64,000 nt of DNA, from contig CP000070.1 of the NCBI GenBank assembly GCA_000002445.1, forward strand, positions 320,001 to 384,000. Direction: 5' to 3'. The notes beneath the pieces were generated by a model. It did no database searches. It saw only the letters and a list, made by a program, of their open reading frames with translations, and was not told the origin of the DNA. Positions 5,419 through 25,534 of the stretch are shown here, piece by piece; within the stretch, counting starts at the first letter, position 1, and every line of letters starts with the position of its first letter. Both the position numbers and the translations under genes were made by a program. Source of the stretch: Trypanosoma brucei (lineage: Eukaryota).

Positions 5419-6405
5419 ATGCAACGCCGCTTGCAGTGTTGTTTAATGCGTGTAGCGCGCTTACATTCGGCAGCATTGATGCATAATACAAATGGTTGGC
5501 TTATGATATCTTGCAGAACCGTACACATTACAGAGAGTGAGGCACAGTCGTTGGTACATTTGTCTGAGGCGCTTTTTTCTGATGAGGCAAATGCTCTGGG
5601 AGTATGTCTACCCGATACCAGCCTTAACCTTGACGGAGAAAGTGGGGAAGGGGATTTATATACTGAGACACTCACAACAGAGAAGTATATGGATGTGCTC
5701 GTTAGTTCACCAACACAAATAGATACGAGGGGAAATGTTTCTGCTTCATCAACGGATCTGATGATGCCGCTTACGCAAGCGGTGCAAGAACTGAAGTTAT
5801 GTCAGCAAAGAGAAGATCAGCGAGCCATTTCTGCAGCGCTTTCAACAGCCATGTGTGCGTTGATGGGAAGTAGTTCATCTCCTTCCAGTGCTGCTGCAGC
5901 TGAGTTATTGTTAGCCGGTGCAGACTTGAAAGCAATCATTTCTGATGGTACTATTCGACATATGTGCATTGAGGATAAATGCATGAGTCGATGTGATTTT
6001 TCCACTTTGTCACTACTTTCTGTACAGGCAAATCGCGTGGATTTCTCGCGCAGTCTCTTTTATGCTGCTGCCTTCCATAATTGTGTGTTTAGGAACTGCT
6101 CTTTTGAGGGGTGTGTACTGAAGGAACTCCGATGTTTAGGAGATGTGTGTTTTGATGGATGCTCCTTTTGTTTTGCGAACATATCGTTACGTATACCTCA
6201 TGAGAAACCGAGGCGTATTTCGGTATCTTCGGCTGCCACAGAAGGCGTGGGAAGGTATTCTGCGGAACATGCTGTGATATTTAACCGCTGTGATTTTGAC
6301 CTCTGTGATTTTGATGGTTGTGATACCCTTCCTGCATCTTGCTTTACGAACTGCACCAATACTCACCTCGCCGCCAAATTTTCGTCATGTGTGAGAACAT
6401 CATAA
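5419..6405 (+). CDS. Pentapeptide-repeat-containing protein (copy 1), 328 aa
   Basis: ATG start; C-terminal half shows 5-residue periodicity with central F/L (VDFSR SLFYA AAFHN CVFRN CSFEG CVLKE ... VCFDG CSFCF; later NRCDF DLCDF DGCDT) typical of pentapeptide (A[DN]LXX-type) beta-helix repeats; duplicated at 9641. Confidence 0.6.
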   Translation: MQRRLQCCLMRVARLHSAALMHNTNGWLMISCRTVHITESEAQSLVHLSEALFSDEANALGVCLPDTSLNLDGESGEGDLYTETLTTEKYMDVLVSSPTQIDTRGNVSASSTDLMMPLTQAVQELKLCQQREDQRAISAALSTAMCALMGSSSSPSSAAAAELLLAGADLKAIISDGTIRHMCIEDKCMSRCDFSTLSLLSVQANRVDFSRSLFYAAAFHNCVFRNCSFEGCVLKELRCLGDVCFDGCSFCFANISLRIPHEKPRRISVSSAATEGVGRYSAEHAVIFNRCDFDLCDFDGCDTLPASCFTNCTNTHLAAKFSSCVRTS

Positions 6406-7526: not shown

Positions 7527-8228
7527 ATGATGGAAAGTATGAACCTTGAACAACCACCACGACTAAACGCCGACCCCTGGCGAGATATGGAGCCAAAGGT
7601 GGATGCAATGCTAGGCGATCTACTCATGATATCTGAGCGTTTCCGAAGGATCGTAAATCCGACAGTGTCTGATGCAGATGAATTAATTGAAGCCATCAAC
7701 TCTGTGGGTGGAGAAGTTGAGACGATGCGGGTCGCTTTAGACACTACGATTGAGCGGCCGGAACTCTTTTCTGTAGATGCGGAAGAATTGAAAAGACGCA
7801 CGGAGAAAACTCGCTCGTGGGAGCGCGATGTTGCGAAAGCCATCGAGTTGCGATCAAAGATATTATCAAACCGTGAAGGGCAAATACAGGATCCACTTGA
7901 GAGTAACGTAATGACACCAAATACATGGGTTGATTTGGACACAACTCATATTCATCCATCAGCTCAGTCGTCGCATATGCCAATGAATAGTTGTGAAGCG
8001 ACTACTGACACATCTGTTGGTGTTGTTGAGTCTCAAGCTCTTATGCCAGTTGGAATACCCATACGTGAGCAAACAGTGAAGGCATCCGAATACTCAACCG
8101 CAAGTGTCGAGGTGCATACAGTGGATGATGTGGATGATCCCAATAATGAGGGATCTCTACTAAAGTACGTATTGGTTATCCTCTTAGTATCATCCATTCT
8201 TGTAGCAATATCGTTGATTTTCTTCTGA
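7527..8228 (+). CDS. Tail-anchored membrane protein with N-terminal helical/coiled domain (copy 1), 233 aa
   Basis: ATG ATG start; N-terminal helical segment (ERFRRIVNPTVSDADELIEAINSVGGEVETMRVALDTTIERPELF... RRTEKTRSWERDVAKAIELRSKIL), S/T-rich linker, single C-terminal hydrophobic segment LLKYVLVILLVSSILVAISLIFF at the extreme C-terminus; no SNARE motif adjacent to TM so not called a SNARE. Confidence 0.5.
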   Translation: MMESMNLEQPPRLNADPWRDMEPKVDAMLGDLLMISERFRRIVNPTVSDADELIEAINSVGGEVETMRVALDTTIERPELFSVDAEELKRRTEKTRSWERDVAKAIELRSKILSNREGQIQDPLESNVMTPNTWVDLDTTHIHPSAQSSHMPMNSCEATTDTSVGVVESQALMPVGIPIREQTVKASEYSTASVEVHTVDDVDDPNNEGSLLKYVLVILLVSSILVAISLIFF

Positions 8229-9640: not shown

Positions 9641-10627
9641 ATGCAACGCCGCTTGCAGTGTTGTTTAATGCGTGTAGCGCGCTTACATTCGGCAGCATTG
9701 ATGCATAATACAAATGGTTGGCTTATGATATCTTGCAGAACCGTACGCATTACAGAGAGTGAGGCACAGTCGTTGGTACATTTGTCTGAGGCGCTTTTTT
9801 CTGATGAGGCAAATGCTCTGGGAGTATGTCTACCCGATACCAGCCTTAACCTTGACGGAGAAAGTGGGGAAGGGGATTTATATACTGAGACACTCACAAC
9901 AGAGAAGTATATGGATGTGCTCGTTAGTTCACCAACACAAATAGATACGAGGGGAAATGTTTCTGCTTCATCAACGGATCTGATGATGCCGCTTACGCAA
10001 GCGGTGCAAGAACTGAAGTTATGTCAGCAAAGAGAAGATCAGCGAGCCATTTCTGCAGCGCTTTCAACAGCCATGTGTGCGTTGATGGGAAGTAGTTCAT
10101 CTCCTTCCAGTGCTGCTGCAGCTGAGTTATTGTTAGCCGGTGCAGACTTGAAAGCAATCATTTCTGATGGTACTATTCGACATATGTGCATTGAGGATAA
10201 ATGCATGAGTCGATGTGATTTTTCCACTTTGTCACTACTTTCTGTACAGGCAAATCGCGTGGATTTCTCGCGCAGTCTCTTTTATGCTGCTGCCTTCCAT
10301 AATTGTGTGTTTAGGAACTGCTCTTTTGAGGGGTGTGTACTGAAGGAACTCCGATGTTTAGGAGATGTGTGTTTTGATGGATGCTCCTTTTGTTTTGCGA
10401 ACATATCGTTACGTATACCTCATGAGAAACCGAGGCGTATTTCGGTATCTTCGGCTGCCACAGAAGGCGTGGGAAGGTATTCTGCGGAACATGCTGTGAT
10501 ATTTAACCGCTGTGATTTTGACCTCTGTGATTTTGATGGTTGTGATACCCTTCCTGCATCTTGCTTTACGAACTGCACCAATACTCACCTCGCCGCCAAA
10601 TTTTCGTCATGTGTGAGAACATCATAA
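9641..10627 (+). CDS. Pentapeptide-repeat-containing protein (copy 2), 328 aa
   Basis: Identical to 5419..6405 product except RTVHITE->RTVRITE. Confidence 0.6.
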   Translation: MQRRLQCCLMRVARLHSAALMHNTNGWLMISCRTVRITESEAQSLVHLSEALFSDEANALGVCLPDTSLNLDGESGEGDLYTETLTTEKYMDVLVSSPTQIDTRGNVSASSTDLMMPLTQAVQELKLCQQREDQRAISAALSTAMCALMGSSSSPSSAAAAELLLAGADLKAIISDGTIRHMCIEDKCMSRCDFSTLSLLSVQANRVDFSRSLFYAAAFHNCVFRNCSFEGCVLKELRCLGDVCFDGCSFCFANISLRIPHEKPRRISVSSAATEGVGRYSAEHAVIFNRCDFDLCDFDGCDTLPASCFTNCTNTHLAAKFSSCVRTS

Positions 10628-11745: not shown

Positions 11746-12447
11746 ATGATGGAAAGTATGAACCTTGAACAACCACCACGACTAAACGCCGACCCCTGGC
11801 GAGATATGGAGCCAAAGGTGGATGCAATGCTAGGCGATCTACTCATGATATCTGAGCGTTTCCGAAGGATCGTAAATCCGACAGTGTCTGATGCAGATGA
11901 ATTAATTGAAGCCATCAACTCTGTGGGTGGAGAAGTTGAGACGATGCGGGTCGCTTTAGACACTACGATTGAGCGGCCGGAACTCTTTTCTGTAGATGCG
12001 GAAGAATTGAAAAGACGCACGGAGAAAACTCGCTCGTGGGAGCGCGATGTTGCGAAAGCCATCGAGTTGCGATCAAAGATATTATCAAACCGTGAAGGGC
12101 AAATACAGGATCCACTTGAGAGTAACGTAATGACACCAAATACATGGGTTGATTTGGACACAACTCATATCCATCCATCAGCTCAGTCGTCGCATATGCC
12201 AATGAATAGTTGTGAAGCGACTACTGACACATCTGTTGGTGTTGTTGAGTCTCAAGCTCTTATGCCAGTTGGAATACCCATACGTGAGCAAACAGTGAAG
12301 GCATCCGAATACTCAACCGCAAGTGTCGAGGTGCATACAGTGGATGATGTGGATGATAGTAGGAGCTCTAATTCTGCTAAGAAGACGGTCTTGATTATAT
12401 TTTTTGCATCGTCTCTTCTTGTGGCTATACTGGTGATTTTCTTTTGA
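11746..12447 (+). CDS. Tail-anchored membrane protein (copy 2) with diverged C-terminal anchor
   Basis: Identical to copy 1 for ~205 aa, then ...VDDVDDSRSSNSAKKTVLIIFFASSLLVAILVIFF instead of ...VDDVDDPNNEGSLLKYVLVILLVSSILVAISLIFF. Confidence 0.5.
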   Translation: MMESMNLEQPPRLNADPWRDMEPKVDAMLGDLLMISERFRRIVNPTVSDADELIEAINSVGGEVETMRVALDTTIERPELFSVDAEELKRRTEKTRSWERDVAKAIELRSKILSNREGQIQDPLESNVMTPNTWVDLDTTHIHPSAQSSHMPMNSCEATTDTSVGVVESQALMPVGIPIREQTVKASEYSTASVEVHTVDDVDDSRSSNSAKKTVLIIFFASSLLVAILVIFF

Positions 12448-16722: not shown

Positions 16723-19700
16723 ATGGAGTCAAAACGCTTTTCGGTGGGGTCCGAAACTCAGCTTCCGCTAAGGTTCCGGCGCAGTTACACCAGTGACGCA
16801 GCCGGCATTGCCCAATTGAGAAAAATCGCGAGCGTCGCGCAATGTATCCCGCCCACCGCAATGTACCCGTGGAAAACGGAGTCAGAATTCACGACGCTCA
16901 TTGAACAATCCGTGATATCTATTACAGCGATATCTACAGTAATTGACAAGCCTGTCGGGTTCATTTGTCTTGACGACACACCGCACACAACGTTGATACC
17001 TGGAGACAGCTGGGAGGTTCTACTAGATGATAGTGACGGAGATTGTGATAAGCCCCTATCAATCTTTCCGTGCAACACCCTATGGGTGAAGGCAGTTCTC
17101 GTTCCTACATCTACTGCCCTTATGTCAGACTCTACAAATATGACGAAAGAGGATTTAGACTTACAAAGAAAGCTGCTACTTTTCGGCTATTCTTCGGAGG
17201 CGCTTCTTCAGCGTTTTCTCCATATTGCGTTAGACAACCTTCCTTCAATCGAGCACCTGTTGGTTCCCTGCCCAATGGGGCAAACTTACCGCGTGTTTGA
17301 AAACATCGGCTTCCGCCCCAGGCCTCTGCAACCCTCATCCTTCAACGGAACCGTACTTCATATCAAATCCGTCAGTATTGTGCCGCAGTTGCTTTTGCGA
17401 CTTGGTATCGTAGAGGACTATGACGATTTTGTGGTTAGGATTCTCGGTGGTGACGGCCTCATCACATCTTTGCCGGAGGAGTTTTATCTTGACGAGCTGT
17501 TAAAAGACCAGAATAGCAACAACAAGGTGATTGTCGCCGAGGACGCCGTGACGCACCGTGTCGCCGGAATTATGTGCCTTGAGGCCTCCATCGAGGATCA
17601 GCAAATGATATCACGACAGTACTACACCGAGTTGTACGGAAAGCTTCGCCCTATGCGAGGGCAACGCAACGCCTCGAAAGGTGCGGTCACTTCCAATATG
17701 GTGAGGATTAAGTTTTTCTACATTGACCCGGCGTACGCGCTGCGGGCTAAGAGTTTCTTGCCGGTCATATACAAGGAGTTTCCGTTCGTTGAGTACGTTA
17801 TTATTACTCTGCCGTACGACACCGAAAAGCCGCCGTTCCTTGGGGACTTTGATCATATCCCACTTCGCAAATATTACCCCAGGAACTCTGAAGGTTATCT
17901 GATACCGCCGCCCGATGGCCTCTGGATCAACTGCAGGTACGCGGCGGATCCAGTGGTCGCTACACCTGTGCGCAGTGAAAAAGACATAACATCCATCAAT
18001 GTCTTCTTGGATGAGCCACACATGGAATTTTCTCAACATCAAATCACTTTGTTGAGGGAGGATATACAACGCCTGCGGAGCGGTAGGGAAACCCCTGAGG
18101 ATGTCGAAGAGTCGAACATCAACAGCTTTGTCTTTTCCTTTGTCACGTACACAGAGAATGTAGGGAGTGAGAAACAGTTACCTATTGTCGTTGGCGTTGC
18201 CTCCGCGCGGAAAATTTCAGTTAATGAAATGTATAGTTTACGTGCAAACTATGACCTCGACAAGCTAGTAAACTACTACTCGAAGGCCCCTCGGGACTAC
18301 AGCGAAACAGACGTAACGCTCAGTTCTGAGGAGGGACGGCGAAAGTTCTTCAGGAACGAGGTGAGAGGTTTGCTCGTTCGCAGTTTCTACGTGAGGCCTG
18401 TGTATCGTAGTCGTATTTCCTTCTTGATGAGGGAATTGTTGCGACACACAGACTGTGAGTTGGCATTATTGCTAGAAGATAATGCCAGTTCACCCTTCAC
18501 CACCTTGTTGCATCAGTTACTGCGCATCCAACCTCGACGAGTGGTGGAGAAACCTCGCCCTCCGGCAAGCGAACCGGTATTCACACCAAGAAGCCCAGAA
18601 AGGATACCAAGTAAGGATGTCTCACCCCTTGGTTGCCTTTTTGCCGCCACGCGTAGAACTCTTGGGGACCGCAAAAAACTGGTACATACACGCATTATTG
18701 TCGTGGGCGCCGGCTCCACTGGTCTGACGTTTCTTTATCGTCTTCTTACCGTGCCGTACATTTGTTTCACTAACCTGGTGCTTATCTCTACTGATGGCAT
18801 GCCGGAGCATCCTAACCAACAGCAGAACCTCTGGAGCACCGATCGGATGGAACTACTTGAACGAGAACATATGGGACTCACAGTGGGGAACCCTATTCGC
18901 GTTATCCACGGCTCTATGGTCGATATTGAAACTGCCCAGCGTTATGTTGTCGTTGACGACAGCACTTATGAGCCGTATGACTATGTTATTCTCACAACGG
19001 GTAGGCAATTTGGCGTGCCTCTTTCCATAAGTAGCCTTCAACAACCAGTGCAGCAGCGGCAGCAGTTGTCACGGACGAGCACACCTCCTGGTGTTCTGCC
19101 GATCTCTGGTTCGGCTTCTGTAGAAAGGTTGCAGCGGACCCTGTATGAATTGGACCGTAACCCAGAAAATGTCAGCAACATTGTGGTGTACGGCTCCGGT
19201 CTAGACGCCTTTGCTATTGCCACATCCATCATCAACCTCGGTTTCTCACCGCAACGTATGGTGTTGGTGAGTCCGGATGTAACAAATCCATTCGTTGACA
19301 AGGACGCCTTTGAATGTGTTGTGAGAATGTGGAGTGCATTGGGGGCGAATACGATGCATGGGTACAAGATCAGTCGCACAGAATACGATGATGATGGTAC
19401 CACATTAACAACCGTCGTTCTTTCACCCGTGCCCGCATTAGCCGCTCCGGCTGGTCCTGGGACCGATTCCAATGCCCGAAGTTCTGTTGAGATCAACTGC
19501 AGCCTTATCGTCTGCTGTGAGGATAAGGATATTGACAGTAATGTACTTTCCACACTGAACAGGCGCTCGATTGTGTTCGACGGTCGCGTCACGGTTGAGT
19601 CCAACTACCTCACGACGAACCCGTGCGTATACGCAACAGGGCCTGTTGCAATGTTCACACGGCGGTACGGCACGACGACCAGTTTCGATGAATTCAACGC

Positions 19701-20766
19701 GAGGGACGTGGGAACAAACTTGGCGGAGGTTATACTTGGTACGCTTGGGTTCGAGGAGTTTGCTACGCCAAACCTTCAGTCGTGCACAGATAAGGAGAAC
19801 GAATTGCTTGCAGCGCATAATGAACTGTACAGTAAAGTCCTCGATGAGAACGGTAGTCGCAACGCAAATTATGGTGTCGACCTTAATTCTCTGTCGGCGG
19901 AAAAGGATGCCCATGAGATTGCAAAGCAAAACCAACTTAAGCAACAGCAGAAACTCCCAGTGTATACCACGCCCGTTGCGAGCCGAATTCGTCTTCCTGG
20001 GAAGTACGTTTTCTTCAGTACTATGCGCATATTTTTTGACCCCGCGCAGTGCACGCGATTGTACTATTCCTGTATAGAAGACAACAAACCTTATGTAGAT
20101 GACATAACAGCCTCTTATCAAGTGGCAACACCTGCCGACAGGGGCTCAATATATAAAGACGTGGAGCAGGACCTTCTTGTAATTTACTTGAACAAACACA
20201 CGCGACTCATTGATGCTGTGGTGTACTTTGGTAATGGCAGTCCTGAGACGCACAACTATATGTGCCTGATTGGTTTGCCTCACTCCTTGTTGAACCTCAT
20301 CTTTCGCTATAATGAAGCCCGCACGGACTTGCTGGAAAGCGATGATTGCGGCTCCAACAGCAGTATGAGCGGGAGTAAGAGCACCGCAAGCAACAAAATA
20401 GATATTGTTGCTCAAGAAAGCACTCTAAATCTCATGGAATATCTTCGGTCACCAAGGTTGCAGGTTGTCTTTTACGATCGGTTCGTGGAGTTCTACGAAA
20501 ACCTCCGTAAGAAGATGCAAGAGCATGAGGATGTGATGAAAATGAAGCAGAGTGCACTCCAGAGAATGGAAGTGACACCACGTATTAGCGCTAAAAACCG
20601 TGCGATATATCTAGAAAAACTGACGGAGATGCAAAAAGACTTTGCACGGAGGGTTCAGTACGAGCTCATCAAATTCCTCCACGAAAGCAAAGAGTACCTG
20701 CCACAGATCATGTACCTGCCAGACATTACGGAGCATGTGGAAAAAAATGAGGGTCGACAGGAGTGA
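16723..20766 (+). CDS. Large flagellar-type protein with pyridine-nucleotide-disulfide-oxidoreductase-like tandem dinucleotide-binding motifs; CFAP61-like (1347 aa)
   Basis: ATG start; mid-protein TRIIVVGAGSTGLTFLYRLL (GxGxxG) and later IVVYGSGLDAFAIATSIINLGF (second Rossmann motif) with TTGRQFG between them - the FAD/NAD(P)-binding arrangement present in CFAP61/FAP61 radial-spoke-associated proteins; size comparable (~1250 aa in other eukaryotes). Family assignment from memory only. Confidence 0.45.
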   Translation: MESKRFSVGSETQLPLRFRRSYTSDAAGIAQLRKIASVAQCIPPTAMYPWKTESEFTTLIEQSVISITAISTVIDKPVGFICLDDTPHTTLIPGDSWEVLLDDSDGDCDKPLSIFPCNTLWVKAVLVPTSTALMSDSTNMTKEDLDLQRKLLLFGYSSEALLQRFLHIALDNLPSIEHLLVPCPMGQTYRVFENIGFRPRPLQPSSFNGTVLHIKSVSIVPQLLLRLGIVEDYDDFVVRILGGDGLITSLPEEFYLDELLKDQNSNNKVIVAEDAVTHRVAGIMCLEASIEDQQMISRQYYTELYGKLRPMRGQRNASKGAVTSNMVRIKFFYIDPAYALRAKSFLPVIYKEFPFVEYVIITLPYDTEKPPFLGDFDHIPLRKYYPRNSEGYLIPPPDGLWINCRYAADPVVATPVRSEKDITSINVFLDEPHMEFSQHQITLLREDIQRLRSGRETPEDVEESNINSFVFSFVTYTENVGSEKQLPIVVGVASARKISVNEMYSLRANYDLDKLVNYYSKAPRDYSETDVTLSSEEGRRKFFRNEVRGLLVRSFYVRPVYRSRISFLMRELLRHTDCELALLLEDNASSPFTTLLHQLLRIQPRRVVEKPRPPASEPVFTPRSPERIPSKDVSPLGCLFAATRRTLGDRKKLVHTRIIVVGAGSTGLTFLYRLLTVPYICFTNLVLISTDGMPEHPNQQQNLWSTDRMELLEREHMGLTVGNPIRVIHGSMVDIETAQRYVVVDDSTYEPYDYVILTTGRQFGVPLSISSLQQPVQQRQQLSRTSTPPGVLPISGSASVERLQRTLYELDRNPENVSNIVVYGSGLDAFAIATSIINLGFSPQRMVLVSPDVTNPFVDKDAFECVVRMWSALGANTMHGYKISRTEYDDDGTTLTTVVLSPVPALAAPAGPGTDSNARSSVEINCSLIVCCEDKDIDSNVLSTLNRRSIVFDGRVTVESNYLTTNPCVYATGPVAMFTRRYGTTTSFDEFNARDVGTNLAEVILGTLGFEEFATPNLQSCTDKENELLAAHNELYSKVLDENGSRNANYGVDLNSLSAEKDAHEIAKQNQLKQQQKLPVYTTPVASRIRLPGKYVFFSTMRIFFDPAQCTRLYYSCIEDNKPYVDDITASYQVATPADRGSIYKDVEQDLLVIYLNKHTRLIDAVVYFGNGSPETHNYMCLIGLPHSLLNLIFRYNEARTDLLESDDCGSNSSMSGSKSTASNKIDIVAQESTLNLMEYLRSPRLQVVFYDRFVEFYENLRKKMQEHEDVMKMKQSALQRMEVTPRISAKNRAIYLEKLTEMQKDFARRVQYELIKFLHESKEYLPQIMYLPDITEHVEKNEGRQE

Positions 20767-21050: not shown

Positions 21051-21385
21051 TAGGGAAACTAACAAGAAAGTGGCACTTATAGGGGTTGAGCTCCTCTTAT
21101 CAGGCTCCCTGATGGCAGCAGCGGTGATCAAAATTGTCACTTCTGTCTTTAGCATTTTGTTATTTTTATGCATTGCATATTGTTTTTCTTCTTGAAAGGT
21201 ATATATGTGTACATATGTTTGTATTATTATTGTTATTATCACTTATCGCATTCCCTTTTACTGTGTTCAAGGTTCTATACGCTACAAGTAAAGTTTTTTT
21301 TTCTCAAGGGCAGGGCAGCCACCAGATAAAGGAAGGGAAGTAATCTGCTTATTTGAATCGAACAACAAAAGCTATAAAAAGAGCA

Positions 21386-21787
21386 GCTAATTACAGGCAG
21401 TTCCGCTTACGACTAAGCAGATTTCATTCAGCAACTAAAGCAACACAGGTATGCTCCGCGTTTCCATTCCCGCACTCAAGACGCTGCAGCCTCTGGGCTC
21501 GCGTGTGCTGGTGAGACGCACTCTGGCAGCCAAGCAAACAAAGGCCGGTGTGCTCATCCCCGAGCAAGTTGCTGGTAAAGTCAACGAGGGTACCGTTGTC
21601 GCTGTGGCGGCTGCAACAAAGGACTGGACACCGAGTGTGAAGGTTAATGACACTGTGCTACTTCCTGAGTTTGGTGGAAGCAGTATTAAGCTGGAAGGAG
21701 AGGAACTGTTCCTCTACAACGAAGACTCGTTGCTTGGTGTTATCCAGAATTGAAGGGTGGACAGTAACCGCTAACGTGCATCACGTC
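21386..21787 (+). repeat. HSP10 duplication unit copy 1 (~402 bp: 65 nt 5' flank + CDS + ~35 nt 3')
   Basis: Identical to 23583..23984 (offset 2197 bp); identity starts at gctaattacaggcagttccgcttacgactaagc and ends after ...ctaacgtgcatcacgtc. Confidence 0.9.
21451..21753 (+). CDS. HSP10: 10 kDa heat shock protein / chaperonin Cpn10 (GroES homologue), mitochondrial, 100 aa, copy 1
   Basis: MLRVSIPALKTLQPLGSRVLVRRTLAAKQTKAGVLIPEQVAGKVNEGTVVAVAAAT...LPEFGGSSIKLEGEELFLYNEDSLLGVI: GroES fold with mobile-loop KTKAGVLIPE and GKV.EGTVVAVA roof region. Confidence 0.9.
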   Translation: MLRVSIPALKTLQPLGSRVLVRRTLAAKQTKAGVLIPEQVAGKVNEGTVVAVAAATKDWTPSVKVNDTVLLPEFGGSSIKLEGEELFLYNEDSLLGVIQN

Positions 21788-22228
21788 ATTCTCTGGTGGC
21801 ACTTTGTTCCCCTCTCGTGTCCTACACGCTCCGCTTCCAGCCTGGTCTGTTTCATTGCTGCGTAAAGGGTGAGAAGCCGTGATAGCGCGAGGAGTGGGGA
21901 ATGGAGTGCATGCCACACTTCTATTTCTATTTACACTTTTATTTTTTTTATTTTAATATTACATCATCGAATTTGTCGGACACCTTCCTTGATTTAGTTT
22001 GTGTGAACCACCGTAGTTGCTTTTTTTTTAAAAAAAAAGAAGGCAACCCTGCCATCCACAATTGCAGTCGCACATATTTTCACTACCATTCTTTTTTATT
22101 CCTTCCCACGGGGGTGGAGTGTGCTAAGTTGTGTGTGTAACATTTAAAATAGCACCGCGCATTCGTACACGGGAAACCTCAAAGGGTCCGTAAAGCAAAA
22201 GAAGAGGAAAAGAAAGAATCACGCGGGC

Positions 22229-23296
22229 ATGTTTTGTGACGCTGAAGATGGGGCTGCCATAGTTTCTCATATTCCAATAAGTCCTTTTGTCCCAATACAA
22301 CACAATAATATTGATGTCTCCGCTGTGAATCGCCTTGCAAACTTCGCCATTCGCTTCGCCAGGGAACACGGCTGGTGTTCCAGTCACCCTTTCAAGATGA
22401 GCTCGGGCCCCAAAATTGGAGAGAATAAAGGCGAGAGCAATGAACTTGATGATATCACTGTTTTCTATGCGGGTGTGGAGGTTGAGCTTGCCGAAGAAAC
22501 CCCGAAGTTCAAAAGAGAGGGCACTCCTGCGTCTCTCTTTCTCTATGCACAGTTATGGCTCTCACATGTAGGTGTGAGCAGCAATGGCCTGTGTGGCAAA
22601 CTCTTTAGCTTCAAGAAGGATGAGGAGGATTGCAGGGAGTTTCTGGGTTCGTTCAAGCTCACAGGCGTTACCGTGTCAAGAACGACTCGTAAACCCACGC
22701 CTATTCCCGCGCCGCGACTCGAAATGATGCGTTCTTTGATCGCAAAAAACACAGCGGCATCGGAGCTGCCCAGGGTTGAGCGTATTAACTTCTCACAGCT
22801 CAACGAGCGGTGCCGTTTCGCTTCTGTCCGCTCCCACGAGGAATTTGCGTGTGCACTTCCATCGCACCCGGCCGTGGCTCCGCTGAAAGTTGGGTACCGC
22901 CGTGAGTTTCACCTGAGAGAAACCGATTTCGATTTTAACAGGCACGTAAACCAGGTTGTAACCATCACAATGGTCATCAACACCTTTCGAGCTGCTTTGG
23001 GTGACAACACAACCATTTTCCCGCGCTTGTTAGATACCGATGTCCACCCTCTGGATGGCGATTTGCTCATCCGAAGGCTACGCATTGACTACGTTCGGGA
23101 GGTACCTGCTGACCACGCCGCCATGGCAGTAATGTTATTCTTTCAAGATGATGTCTCAATGGATAATGTCATTGCGTCTTCCACAAATTCGAGAAAAAAA
23201 TCCCTTACTGAACTTTGGTTTATTGTGCAGGGAATCCCGGCCGCTGAGACCAATCCATTTGTCTCCGCGGTTGGTAAGGTGCTTTTGCGGTGCTGA
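22229..23296 (+). CDS. Hypothetical protein with acyl-ACP-thioesterase-like (hotdog) signature, 355 aa, between the two HSP10 copies
   Basis: ATG start; C-terminal half contains ETDFDFNRHVNQVVTITMVINTFRAA, matching the D-x-N-x-HVN-x catalytic-region motif of FatA/FatB-type acyl-ACP thioesterases (PF01643, from memory); no other family recognised. Confidence 0.4.
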   Translation: MFCDAEDGAAIVSHIPISPFVPIQHNNIDVSAVNRLANFAIRFAREHGWCSSHPFKMSSGPKIGENKGESNELDDITVFYAGVEVELAEETPKFKREGTPASLFLYAQLWLSHVGVSSNGLCGKLFSFKKDEEDCREFLGSFKLTGVTVSRTTRKPTPIPAPRLEMMRSLIAKNTAASELPRVERINFSQLNERCRFASVRSHEEFACALPSHPAVAPLKVGYRREFHLRETDFDFNRHVNQVVTITMVINTFRAALGDNTTIFPRLLDTDVHPLDGDLLIRRLRIDYVREVPADHAAMAVMLFFQDDVSMDNVIASSTNSRKKSLTELWFIVQGIPAAETNPFVSAVGKVLLRC

Positions 23297-23582
23297 CGAG
23301 ATATACCCCGGTGAAACACCTTAAATGTGTTCCCCGTTTAAGGACTTCGACGCCCATGCTAAGGGGAGATAAGTTTATTAAAATGAAACATCGTTGAAAC
23401 ACAGGGGGGAAACAAGGCAAAAATTGGAAAGAAAATATACTTTGTGAAGTTCACACCCACGTGCTCTGTTGGTCGAACTGGACCCAAACCGTAATTGCAC
23501 TCTGCCTTTCCCCACCTTTGCATGCCCGAATTAATGTACATTTCTCGCTTTCCTTTCTTTACAAGTAACCAGTGACCCAGAA

Positions 23583-23984
23583 GCTAATTACAGGCAGTTC
23601 CGCTTACGACTAAGCAGATTTCATTCAGCAACTAAAGCAACACAGGTATGCTCCGCGTTTCCATTCCCGCACTCAAGACGCTGCAGCCTCTGGGCTCGCG
23701 TGTGCTGGTGAGACGCACTCTGGCAGCCAAGCAAACAAAGGCCGGTGTGCTCATCCCCGAGCAAGTTGCTGGTAAAGTCAACGAGGGTACCGTTGTCGCT
23801 GTGGCGGCTGCAACAAAGGACTGGACACCGAGTGTGAAGGTTAATGACACTGTGCTACTTCCTGAGTTTGGTGGAAGCAGTATTAAGCTGGAAGGAGAGG
23901 AACTGTTCCTCTACAACGAAGACTCGTTGCTTGGTGTTATCCAGAATTGAAGGGTGGACAGTAACCGCTAACGTGCATCACGTC
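23583..23984 (+). repeat. HSP10 duplication unit copy 2
   Basis: See copy 1; downstream flank diverges (ccacatatgggatgcgagacc... vs attctctggtggcactttgttcc...). Confidence 0.9.
23648..23950 (+). CDS. HSP10: 10 kDa heat shock protein / Cpn10, copy 2 (identical protein)
   Basis: 100/100 aa identical to 21451..21753. Confidence 0.9.
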   Translation: MLRVSIPALKTLQPLGSRVLVRRTLAAKQTKAGVLIPEQVAGKVNEGTVVAVAAATKDWTPSVKVNDTVLLPEFGGSSIKLEGEELFLYNEDSLLGVIQN

Positions 23985-24481
23985 CCACATATGGGATGCG
24001 AGACCCGCTATTTCCATTATCTATTTTCTTATTATCACTATCACTATTGTTATTTTTAATTACTGTTCGGACAAGTGAAACGATTTTCTCCACTTCCTGT
24101 GTTCGCCCATCGGTATGCATCGGATTTTGGGACACTAACATTCATCGCATTGCGCGCGCTTGACGCCCCCGGCACCGGGGCAGTTGTATCAGTTCACTTT
24201 TTCCTAAATTTTGGTCACTACGTTTCCCTTTTTAAAAAAAAATTATTCTTTCCCCGGCAATCCCGTTTCGCCACTATTACGCCTCGCATTGGGATGCACA
24301 GTGGCAAAGGTTGTCCCACGGGCGGTCAACTAGTGTGGGATACGTTCCCATAATTACACATTTGTGGTAGGTAAAAGCACGTTCGGTATTTTCAGTGTTG
24401 CACAGGAGGCCCTAGTGCAGTTCTGCAACGGCGTTGCTGTGACTTCTCTTGACTCGTTTGTTGCATGTGCCCGCGGTGGAG

Positions 24482-25534
24482 ATGTTTCGCTATCGTTGCC
24501 GCAACGCTAAAAACCTGTTGCTGATGCGCAACATACGCCGTTGGTACACAAGTGCGGGCAACGATGAGAGTCTACCATCCGCGCAAGGACCACCGTTGGC
24601 AGGCGTTTCATCACCAACGCTGTGGAGGAACGGTGGTGTGCTGGGCGAGGGCATGTTGGGAAACCCACGTGTGGCAGCAACAACACCGCAGGAGGTGGAG
24701 GAAACGTTTCGCTGCTCCGTCCTTGCCCGTACGGTTAGCAACTTGAAATTGCGGCGTTACCTCCAGAAATTGGAACCAAAGGATCACACATTAGTCCTTG
24801 CGGCTCTTCGTGGAGCTCAAGCTGGTGGGCTTCGATTGGATACGAAAACTAACGAAGTGGCCCTCTCTAAGCTGATGGATGGAGGCCAACTGCAGGCAAG
24901 TATGGAGATTTATCGGAAGATGATTCAGAATCGTATGAATCCAACAGCAAACACATATGCCACGCTTATGCACATGTGCATCGAGCGGGATATGCCGGAG
25001 GCGTGCCAGAAACTTTTTGAGGAGATGGTCAAGCGTGGCCAGTCACCCAACACACGGAACTACGAAATGTATATTGGGTCGCTCGCAATGGAAAATCCGC
25101 CCAAATGGAAAAATGCTATTGAGGTGTTTGACCGCATGTCACGGGAGCGTCACGGCAAACACCTGACGGCAGCAACATACGAGTCCCTTATGCGCGTCTA
25201 CCTGAATATGACGCCATTTGACTGGCGGGTGGTTTACAACTGCTACTATGAGATGCGCTCTCGCCAACCCCAAATTCAGCTACGGTGGGAGACCTATCAC
25301 TTGGTGGCGGAAGCACTGCGCCGTGGTCAAGCAGGGTACACGCGGCGCCTCATCACGTACTTGGATGCGTGGTTTTGTATAACGTACTTTCGCTCCTGGG
25401 AGTTTTTCATGGGCTTCATGTTTTACATCTGCCTGATGTTTCTTATTAAGGGTCTTATTAGTTGGGTGGTTGTCTGGTACTACGGGCGCGCCGTTAACGC
25501 AAGCAGGGGTGCGTCGGAGTCTGTCATCTTATAG
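24482..25534 (+). CDS. Pentatricopeptide-repeat (PPR)-like protein, probable mitochondrial; track start 24449 is TTG, first ATG 24482 (MFRYRCRNAKNLLLMRNIRRWY)
   Basis: R-rich amphipathic N-terminus; degenerate ~35-aa helical repeats with PPR character (MEIYRKMIQNRMNPTANTYATLMHMCIERDMPEACQKLFEEMVKRGQSPNTRNYEMYIGSL..., AIEVFDRMSRERHGKHLTAATYESLMRVYL). Confidence 0.55.
   Translation: MFRYRCRNAKNLLLMRNIRRWYTSAGNDESLPSAQGPPLAGVSSPTLWRNGGVLGEGMLGNPRVAATTPQEVEETFRCSVLARTVSNLKLRRYLQKLEPKDHTLVLAALRGAQAGGLRLDTKTNEVALSKLMDGGQLQASMEIYRKMIQNRMNPTANTYATLMHMCIERDMPEACQKLFEEMVKRGQSPNTRNYEMYIGSLAMENPPKWKNAIEVFDRMSRERHGKHLTAATYESLMRVYLNMTPFDWRVVYNCYYEMRSRQPQIQLRWETYHLVAEALRRGQAGYTRRLITYLDAWFCITYFRSWEFFMGFMFYICLMFLIKGLISWVVVWYYGRAVNASRGASESVIL

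What the first reader, a model, noticed from the sequence alone, without database searches (positions are those of the whole stretch)
22229..23296. Acyl-ACP-thioesterase-like hotdog protein between the HSP10 copies
The 355-aa product carries ETDFDFNRHVNQVV..., which matches the D-x-N-x-H-V-N catalytic motif of plant and bacterial FatA/FatB acyl-ACP thioesterases. Trypanosomatids are usually described as releasing fatty acids from elongase/FAS II systems without a classical Fat-type thioesterase. A conserved Fat-like protein embedded between two mitochondrial chaperonin genes would therefore be a notable candidate for the missing chain-release activity of mitochondrial FAS II. The match is a motif-level observation only.
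Basis: partly seen in the sequence, partly recalled or inferred. Interest (0 to 1): 0.5.

Follow-up and report, generated by a model that had tools for sequence, protein, structure and literature searches.

The report
Divergent Fat-like thioesterase gene in trypanosome
The gene between the two HSP10 copies of Trypanosoma brucei chromosome 7 does encode a distant relative of plant and bacterial fatty-acyl thioesterases with its catalytic residues intact, but orthologues already carry that label in public databases and nothing places the protein in the mitochondrion.

Summary
Window 22229-23296 (+) is a 355-aa ORF, T. brucei TREU927 XP_845757.1/Q57WR7 'hypothetical protein, conserved' (by position Tb927.7.1330). 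It lies between two identical HSP10 genes. The DFNRHVN motif occurs once in all six frames.

The Fat-like reading is supported well beyond the motif:
- The AlphaFold model is a double hotdog.
- A family profile aligns to Pfam-verified bacterial acyl-ACP thioesterases (hhalign 98.5%, E 3.5e-15).
- D235/N237/H239/E291 align with UcFatB D281/N283/H285/E319 and are invariant or nearly invariant in the family.

It is still a divergent, small, protist-restricted clade. It has no PF01643 hit, scores 20.6 bits on PF20791 against a cut-off of 21, and has extra inserts.

The 'missing mitochondrial FAS II release enzyme' idea is not supported:
- The N-terminus is acidic, has no presequence, and forms the first strand of the fold.
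- Two T. brucei mitochondrial inventories list both flanking HSP10 genes or one of them, and the downstream PPR gene, but not this gene.

The T. cruzi orthologue is already named 'Acyl-ACP thioesterase-like'/'thiolester hydrolase'. Most likely it is an extramitochondrial acyl-thioester hydrolase, and it has not been characterised experimentally.

The parts
22229..23296 (+). Complete CDS of the 355-aa Fat-like double-hotdog protein (T. brucei XP_845757.1/Q57WR7; Tb927.7.1330 by position)
   Evidence: ORF; exact-sequence identification; no upstream extension
22229..22678 (+). N-terminal hotdog domain (approx. residues 1-150), non-catalytic. Strands 2-4 and 10-16, helix 30-46, strands 77-149. Conserved family signature DGSA..V..IP.SPF...QH at the very N-terminus
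   Evidence: AF2 secondary structure; alignments; family-profile hits to YbgC/FadM-type single hotdogs over this region
22364..22444 (+). Variable, low-confidence loop (residues 46-72) inserted after the N-terminal hotdog helix
   Evidence: pLDDT <50; unalignable, length-variable columns
22679..22888 (+). Long, partly helical inter-domain linker (approx. residues 151-220). It is longer than in the ~250-aa bacterial Fat-type enzymes
   Evidence: gaps against the bacterial profile
22889..23293 (+). C-terminal, catalytic hotdog domain (approx. residues 221-355). Best-modelled part (pLDDT 80-90)
   Evidence: (PF20791 residues 221-252)
22925..22954 (+). Catalytic motif D233-F-D235-F-N237-R-H239-V-N241-Q242. 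D235/N237/H239 correspond to UcFatB D281/N283/H285
   Evidence: D235, H239 and N241 invariant, D233 and N237 nearly invariant in 32 family members; aligned to DIDFNRHVN of bacterial acyl-ACP thioesterases and to 5x04; UcFatB residues from PMC9659231 Table 2
23099..23101 (+). Glu291 in RIDYVRE, equivalent of UcFatB E319 (EYRRE). It is followed by Val, not the Cys of plant Fat enzymes
   Evidence: Invariant in 32 family members; aligned to the invariant Glu of the bacterial profile; spacing counted on the 5x04 alignment
21451..21753 (+). Upstream HSP10/Cpn10 gene copy (context only, not functionally tied)
23648..23950 (+). Downstream HSP10/Cpn10 gene copy, 100% identical (context only)

Best explanation
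The ORF encodes a divergent, protist-restricted relative of the Fat-type (FatA/FatB and bacterial acyl-ACP thioesterase) double-hotdog enzymes.

Architecture (shown): as in Fat enzymes, a degenerate N-terminal hotdog precedes a C-terminal hotdog that carries the catalytic centre. The catalytic residues are D235, N237 and H239 in the D-x-N-x-H-V-N loop at the start of the hotdog helix, plus E291 on the following strand.

Chemistry (inferred by homology): the Asp/Asn/His/Glu network hydrolyses a fatty-acyl thioester to a free fatty acid plus the thiol carrier. By analogy with Fat enzymes, the N-terminal hotdog would supply most of the acyl-chain pocket.

Location and substrate (inferred, weaker): the protein has no mitochondrial presequence and is missing from T. 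brucei mitochondrial inventories. The only ACP of trypanosomes is mitochondrial. The enzyme therefore most probably works outside the matrix on acyl-CoA, for example products of the ER elongase pathway, or on another acyl-thioester, rather than on acyl-ACP.

Its position between two HSP10 genes is a conserved piece of synteny in a polycistron, not a functional operon.

The confidence of 0.6 is for the whole statement. The Fat-homologous thioesterase-fold part alone is about 0.9. The extramitochondrial, non-ACP substrate part is about 0.6.
For: - Sequence: PF20791 Acyl-ACP_TE_C matches at E 5e-4 in T. brucei and in 20 of 32 family members, best 8.8e-14. The family profile hits 9mqf at 7.9e-6, 5x04 at 6.5e-5 and 2own at 7.6e-5. 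hhalign against Pfam-verified bacterial acyl-ACP thioesterases gives 98.5% probability and E 3.5e-15, with the motif and the Glu in register.
- Catalytic residues: D235, H239, N241 and E291 are invariant, and D233 and N237 nearly invariant. They match the UcFatB residues listed in PMC9659231.
- Not mitochondrial: there is no K/R in residues 1-34 and the net charge is -3 to -4. Residues 2-16 are strands of the fold, and the N-terminal signature is conserved even in distant family members. No upstream start exists. The gene is absent from the importome tables and from the Zikova 2017 mitoproteome table, which list Tb927.7.1320/1340/1350.
- Background: a 2021 review of trypanosomatid lipid metabolism names only acetyl-CoA thioesterase (ACH) and no acyl-ACP thioesterase (PMC8561143).
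Against: - No enzymology, substrate or localisation data exist for this protein or any orthologue in the searched literature.
- The N-terminal Pfam domain PF01643 is not detected, and PF20791 falls just below its gathering score in T. brucei.
- Absence from proteomic lists may only mean low abundance, and some supplementary files were truncated.
- Trypanosome matrix proteins can use internal or atypical import signals.
- The Cys that follows the catalytic Glu in plant Fat enzymes is absent (V292).
Confidence: 0.6

Rival explanations
1. The protein is the acyl-ACP thioesterase that releases C8-C16 chains from mitochondrial ACP, terminating FAS II in trypanosomes.
For: The closest structural and sequence relatives are genuine acyl-ACP thioesterases, and the catalytic residues are conserved. 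No mitochondrial chain-release enzyme is named in the trypanosomatid lipid review. In T. cruzi the orthologue's transcript is listed as changing alongside mitochondrial ACP in a benznidazole-resistant line, both 1.5-fold; this is very weak evidence.
Against: The N-terminus is acidic, has no presequence, and is part of the fold. The gene is not in the ATOM40-dependent importome or in a compiled mitoproteome, while its neighbours are. Adjacency to HSP10 is uninformative in a polycistron whose other neighbours are unrelated.
Confidence: 0.15
2. A hotdog-fold protein that has kept the fold but does something other than hydrolyse fatty-acyl thioesters. Possibilities include an acyltransferase/decarboxylase like LnmK, a dehydratase or hydratase, or a non-catalytic acyl-binding or scaffold subunit.
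Against: The Fat-specific Asp/Asn/His/Glu set is invariant or nearly invariant across about 32 divergent family members, which argues for retained Fat-type catalysis. All top-ranked structures are thioesterases. The only Pfam matches are thioesterase families.
Confidence: 0.12
3. The motif is a chance match in a non-homologous protein.
For: The single-sequence Pfam hit covers only 32 residues and falls 0.4 bits below the gathering score. phmmer against the PDB finds nothing significant.
Confidence: 0.01

Closest known systems
Plant and algal FatA/FatB acyl-ACP thioesterases (e.g. UcFatB 5X04, AtFatA 9HRR, Chlamydomonas 9MQF)
   Different: Only 13-15% identity. No plastid or mitochondrial targeting peptide. 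No PF01643 match. No Cys after the catalytic Glu. About 100 extra residues: a loop at 46-72, a long linker at 151-220, and an insert between the catalytic helix and the Glu strand. Substrate unknown. No ACP-dependent FAS is expected in the compartment where it probably resides.
Bacterial acyl-ACP thioesterases of the same Pfam families (B. thetaiotaomicron 2ESS, Spirosoma 4GAK, L. plantarum 2OWN; Bacteroides, Clostridium and Azospirillaceae ORFs in L001, L003, L004)
   Same: Nearly identical core motif (DIDFNRHVN against DFDFNRHVN in T. brucei and DIDFNRHVN in other trypanosomes). The Glu aligns. Like two of the three bacterial ORFs examined here, it lacks the plant Cys. hhalign 98.5%, E 3.5e-15.
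   Different: The bacterial enzymes are about 250 aa and score strongly on both PF01643 and PF20791.
YbgC/FadM-type 4HBT_2 single-hotdog acyl-CoA thioesterases (PF13279; e.g. 2FUJ, 1NJK)
   Same: Same superfamily and a related D-x-D-x-x-G-H-V-N-N motif. 16 of 32 family members hit PF13279 (best 4.6e-21). The family profile hits these proteins over the N-terminal hotdog. Two metagenomic members are auto-named 'acyl-CoA thioesterase FadM'.
   Different: Those are single-domain proteins of about 130-150 aa that form active sites across subunits. Here two fused hotdogs have Fat-type asymmetry and the Fat-specific Asn (H-2) and Glu. Genuine Fat enzymes also cross-hit PF13279, so this hit does not discriminate.
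ACOT7/ACOT12 double-hotdog acyl-CoA thioesterases and LnmK
   Same: Fused double-hotdog architecture. ACOT7 is a cytosolic acyl-CoA thioesterase, a plausible functional analogue if the trypanosome protein is cytosolic.

Membership tests
Fat-type acyl-ACP thioesterases (Pfam PF01643 + PF20791) | Two fused hotdog domains in one chain | tested here: met
   [not shown]
Fat-type acyl-ACP thioesterases (Pfam PF01643 + PF20791) | Catalytic Asp-x-Asn-x-His-Val-Asn at the start of the C-terminal hotdog helix (UcFatB D281/N283/H285) | tested here: met
   D235/N237/H239 align to 5x04 and to bacterial enzymes. D235 and H239 are invariant and N237 nearly invariant in the family. Reference residues come from PMC9659231.
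Fat-type acyl-ACP thioesterases (Pfam PF01643 + PF20791) | Catalytic Glu on the strand after the helix (UcFatB E319, motif YRRE) | tested here: met
   E291 in YVRE is invariant and aligns to the invariant Glu of the bacterial profile.
Fat-type acyl-ACP thioesterases (Pfam PF01643 + PF20791) | Cys next to the catalytic Glu (plant Fat C320) | tested here: not met
   The residue is V292, and I/T/V in orthologues. The Cys is also absent in the Bacteroides and Azospirillaceae enzymes, so it defines plant Fat enzymes only.
Fat-type acyl-ACP thioesterases (Pfam PF01643 + PF20791) | Score above the Pfam gathering threshold on the C-terminal domain model PF20791 | tested here: inconclusive
   T. brucei scores 20.6 bits against a cut-off of 21. 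20 of 32 family members match at E<=0.01, best 8.8e-14.
Fat-type acyl-ACP thioesterases (Pfam PF01643 + PF20791) | Score above the Pfam gathering threshold on the N-terminal domain model PF01643 | tested here: not met
   No hit in T. brucei. Only 1 of 32 members matches, at E 0.0049.
Fat-type acyl-ACP thioesterases (Pfam PF01643 + PF20791) | Targeting to the compartment that holds ACP-dependent FAS II (in trypanosomes, the mitochondrion) | tested here: not met
   No presequence. Absent from two mitochondrial inventories that list its neighbours. This is negative proteomic evidence, not proof.
Fat-type acyl-ACP thioesterases (Pfam PF01643 + PF20791) | Hydrolysis of acyl-ACP in preference to acyl-CoA | not testable with these tools
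   Needs an enzyme assay.
4HBT_2 / YbgC-FadM thioesterase-like superfamily (PF13279) | Score above the PF13279 gathering threshold (25.5 bits) | tested here: inconclusive
   No hit for the T. brucei protein. 16 of 32 family members match. Genuine Fat enzymes cross-hit as well.

The most novel reading that the evidence does not exclude
Despite lacking a canonical presequence, the protein reaches the mitochondrion, or acts on acyl-ACP at its surface, and is the chain-terminating acyl-ACP thioesterase of mitochondrial FAS II. No such enzyme is named for trypanosomatids in the review read here, and to my knowledge, from memory, none is established for non-plant eukaryotes in general. The small protist family it belongs to (kinetoplastids, Colponema, Reticulomyxa) would then define a new eukaryotic mitochondrial branch of the Fat-type family.
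Probability: 0.12. Interest if true: 0.65.

Novelty: new member of a known kind. Interest (0 to 1): 0.3.

Why it matters
Trypanosomes make fatty acids by two routes: an ER elongase pathway that uses acyl-CoA, and a mitochondrial ACP-dependent FAS II. The only thioesterase named in the review read here is the acetyl-CoA thioesterase ACH.

A conserved Fat-like enzyme with an intact active site is a concrete, testable candidate for releasing free fatty acids or editing acyl-thioester pools in these parasites. It also lacks close relatives in the collections searched: only 36 representative clusters among 1.84 billion. Whether a mammalian homologue exists was not tested here.

As it stands this is a well-supported annotation upgrade for a T. 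brucei 'hypothetical protein'. It is not a discovery, because orthologues already carry the label and there is no evidence linking the protein to mitochondrial FAS II.

Tried and rejected
- NCBIfam scan: no hit.
- Single-sequence phmmer against the PDB: only noise, thioredoxin at E 0.67.
- Third homologous-protein search, with the 32-sequence alignment: added only the Reticulomyxa protein because of the candidate cap.
- AFDB50 fold search: library unavailable.
- Scan of bacterial and archaeal genomes with the family pattern: found only classical ~250-aa acyl-ACP thioesterases matching around the motif, and no full-length family member. These ORFs were re-used as a verified Fat reference set.
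- Literature: 'Tb927.7.1330' and alternative or orthologue gene IDs gave no paper, apart from the T. cruzi transcriptome table.
- Localisation look-ups:
  - The TrypTag paper supplements and the structure-based annotation paper supplements contain no entry.
  - The hyperLOPIT supplements are truncated and uninformative for this gene.
  - The Pyrih 2023 sub-mitochondrial map is not held.
- PTS1 and PTS2 glycosomal signals: none found; the C-terminus is -LRC and there is no PTS2-like match.
- Functional coupling to HSP10: rejected. Only the HSP10 CDS plus about 100 nt of flanks is duplicated, and the other neighbours are functionally unrelated.
- Presence or absence of a Leishmania orthologue could not be established.

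Full report
**1. Observation**

The ORF exists exactly as described: 22229-23296 on the + strand, ATG to stop, 355 aa.
- An in-frame stop lies 28 codons upstream with no ATG in between, so the N-terminus is fixed.
- The peptide ETDFDFNRHVNQVV is at residues 231-244.
- D-x-N-x-H-V-N occurs once in the six-frame translation of the whole 64-kb window, at nt 22931.
- About 1e-4 occurrences are expected in a protein of this composition, and 24 of 200,000 shuffles contain one.
- Two 100-aa Cpn10/HSP10 genes with identical protein sequences flank it, at 21451-21753 and 23648-23950.
- Only about 410 nt is duplicated at the DNA level: the HSP10 CDS plus short flanks.

By exact match the protein is T. 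brucei brucei TREU927 AAZ12198.1/XP_845757.1/Q57WR7, 'hypothetical protein, conserved'. The HSP10s are AAZ12197 and AAZ12199. The importome tables give Tb927.7.1320 and Tb927.7.1340 for the HSP10s, so by position the gene is Tb927.7.1330.

**2. What it is**

Single-sequence searches are marginal:
- Pfam gives only PF20791 (Acyl-ACP thioesterase C-terminal domain) at E 5e-4, 20.6 bits against a cut-off of 21, over residues 221-252.
- NCBIfam gives nothing.
- phmmer against the PDB gives nothing.

Family-level evidence is decisive.
- Orthologues exist throughout Trypanosoma at about 50% identity.
- An exhaustive profile search of 1.84 billion representatives finds only 36 proteins. Named members come from Strigomonas, Angomonas, Trypanoplasma (Cryptobia) borreli, Colponema vietnamica and Reticulomyxa filosa.
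- Of 32 members scanned, 20 hit PF20791 (best 8.8e-14) and 16 hit PF13279 4HBT_2 (best 4.6e-21).
- The family profile hits three Fat-type thioesterase chains in the PDB: Chlamydomonas chloroplast acyl-ACP thioesterase 9mqf (7.9e-6), UcFatB 5x04 (6.5e-5) and L. plantarum 2own (7.6e-5).
- A scan of bacterial genomes supplied three classical ~250-aa thioesterases. Pfam confirms them as PF01643 + PF20791.
- Profile-profile alignment of the trypanosome family against these three gives 98.5% probability and E 3.5e-15. The DxDFNxH[VL]N motif and the downstream Glu are in register.

Structural evidence agrees.
- The AlphaFold2 model (11-sequence alignment, pLDDT 71.8, pTM 0.75) has two hotdog units. 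The first is strands 2-16, helix 30-46 and strands 77-149. The second is strand 223-228, helix 242-258 and strands 281-354.
- The top 39 Foldseek hits in the PDB are all Fat-type acyl-ACP thioesterases, E 1.7e-14 to 2.5e-10.
- Other double hotdogs follow: LnmK 18.2, ACOT7 17.9, MFE-2 hydratase 16.2 and ACOT12 15.8.

**3. Catalytic centre**

PMC9659231 (Table 2) lists the UcFatB catalytic centre as D281, N283, H285, E319 and C320.
- In the 5x04 alignment, RWNDLDVNQHVNN aligns with RETDFDFNRHVNQ. This gives D235=D281, N237=N283 and H239=H285.
- Counting along the 5x04 segment puts E319 in EYRRE, 34 residues after the His. The trypanosome equivalent is E291 in IDYVRE.
- That Glu is aligned to the invariant Glu of the bacterial profile.
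- The larger spacing, 52 residues, comes from an insert (TIFPRLLDTDVHPLDGDLL) that appears as a gap against the bacterial enzymes.
- D235, H239, N241 and E291 are invariant, and D233 and N237 nearly invariant, in 32 family members.
- The plant Cys is replaced by Val. It is also missing in two of the three bacterial enzymes.

The N-terminal hotdog has no equivalent motif and is therefore non-catalytic, as in Fat enzymes.

**4. How it probably works**

Shown: a Fat-type double-hotdog fold with a conserved Asp/Asn/His/Glu centre.

Inferred: hydrolysis of a fatty-acyl thioester, with the N-terminal domain forming the acyl pocket.

The carrier of the substrate is the open question. Several points count against that:
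- The first 34 residues contain no Lys or Arg and carry a net charge of -3 to -4.
- Residues 2-16 are modelled as strands just before the hotdog helix.
- The N-terminal signature DGSA..V..IP.SPF...QH is conserved from residue ~7 even in distant members.
- No upstream start exists.
- The ATOM40-dependent importome tables (PMC5436138) list Tb927.7.1320.1340 and .1350 consecutively but not .1330.
- The compiled mitoproteome table of PMC5739487 lists .1340 and .1350 but not .1330.
- No PTS1 or PTS2 glycosomal signal was seen.

I therefore rate an extramitochondrial acyl-CoA (or other acyl-thioester) hydrolase as most likely. The mitochondrial acyl-ACP thioesterase reading gets about 0.15. A non-hydrolase or non-catalytic hotdog role gets about 0.12.

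These negatives are not proof. The protein may simply be of low abundance, and some supplementary files were truncated.

**5. Context**

All genes in the region lie on the + strand of one polycistron and are functionally unrelated. They include a DAG/sphingosine-kinase-like protein, EMC7, a protein disulfide isomerase, a CFAP61-like protein, HSP10, this gene, HSP10 and a PPR protein.

The HSP10-X-HSP10 order appears conserved.
- Gene numbering in T. congolense, T. vivax and T. cruzi leaves one gene between HSP10 copies.
- A 1496-aa EukProt gene model (P0011) reads thioesterase-like, HSP10, thioesterase-like, thioesterase-like.

This is synteny, not evidence of shared function.

**6. Comparison with the known, and novelty**

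The protein works like, and is homologous to, Fat-type thioesterases. It fails or only borderline-passes the curated family models: PF01643 is absent and PF20791 is 0.4 bits short. It is about 100 residues longer and lacks a targeting peptide. It belongs to a small protist-restricted clade with no full-length bacterial member detected in the pattern-seeded scan of bacterial and archaeal genomes.

The assignment is not new.
- UniRef names the T. cruzi and T. cruzi marinkellei orthologues 'Acyl-ACP thioesterase-like C-terminal domain-containing protein'.
- NCBI names the T. cruzi, T. rangeli and T. conorhini orthologues 'thiolester hydrolase'.
- The T. b. equiperdum protein is named 'Thioesterase-like superfamily'.
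- T. cruzi C4B63_8g510, shown here to be the orthologue, is listed as 'Acyl-ACP Thioesterase' in PMC10204194.

No experimental study of any member was found. A 2021 review of trypanosomatid lipid metabolism mentions no acyl-ACP thioesterase.

**7. Verdict**

- The Fat-like homology is supported.
- The mitochondrial FAS II role is unsupported and mildly contradicted.
- This is a new, divergent member of a known kind. It is of moderate-to-low interest until localisation and substrate are measured.

Noticed in passing
window 21451-23950; P0011 (EukProt gene model, 1496 aa): The HSP10 / thioesterase-like interleaving is conserved. Gene numbering in T. congolense, T. vivax and T. cruzi leaves one gene between HSP10 copies. 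A distant euglenozoan-like gene model fuses TE-like (61-433), Cpn10 (519-598), TE-like (655-1036) and TE-like (1125-1466). This is probably a polycistron read as one gene.
   Followed up: partly
window 21380-21790 and 23577-23987: The two HSP10 copies are 100% identical at DNA level over about 410 nt only: the CDS, about 70 nt upstream and about 35 nt downstream. Identity falls to background outside that block. This suggests gene conversion confined to the coding unit around an unduplicated middle gene.
   Followed up: partly
window 23291-23293 (Cys355) and orthologue C-termini: All nine Trypanosoma sequences examined end in a C-terminal Cys (-LRC, -VWC, -VSC, -VCC, -ICC, -VYC, -FFC). Some other probable kinetoplastid members (P0009, P0010, P0012, P0016) have Cys within the last 2-5 residues. 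A possible S-acylation or membrane-anchoring site. Unexplained.
   Followed up: no
window 5419-6405 / 9641-10627 and 7527-8228 / 11746-12447: A two-gene unit (328-aa ORF with a weak pentapeptide-repeat hit, plus a 233-aa ORF with no Pfam hit) appears twice in tandem about 4.2 kb apart.
   Followed up: no
window 24449-25534: The downstream gene (Tb927.7.1350) is a PPR-repeat protein with a basic N-terminus (MFRYRCRNAKN... after an internal Met). It is listed as mitochondrial in both inventories. The TTG-start ORF listed is probably too long at its 5' end.
   Followed up: no
[not shown]
   Followed up: no
window 16723-20766: The 1347-aa upstream gene (Tb927.7.1310) combines CFAP61 N-terminal and dimerisation domains with a pyridine-nucleotide-disulphide oxidoreductase domain.
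   Followed up: no
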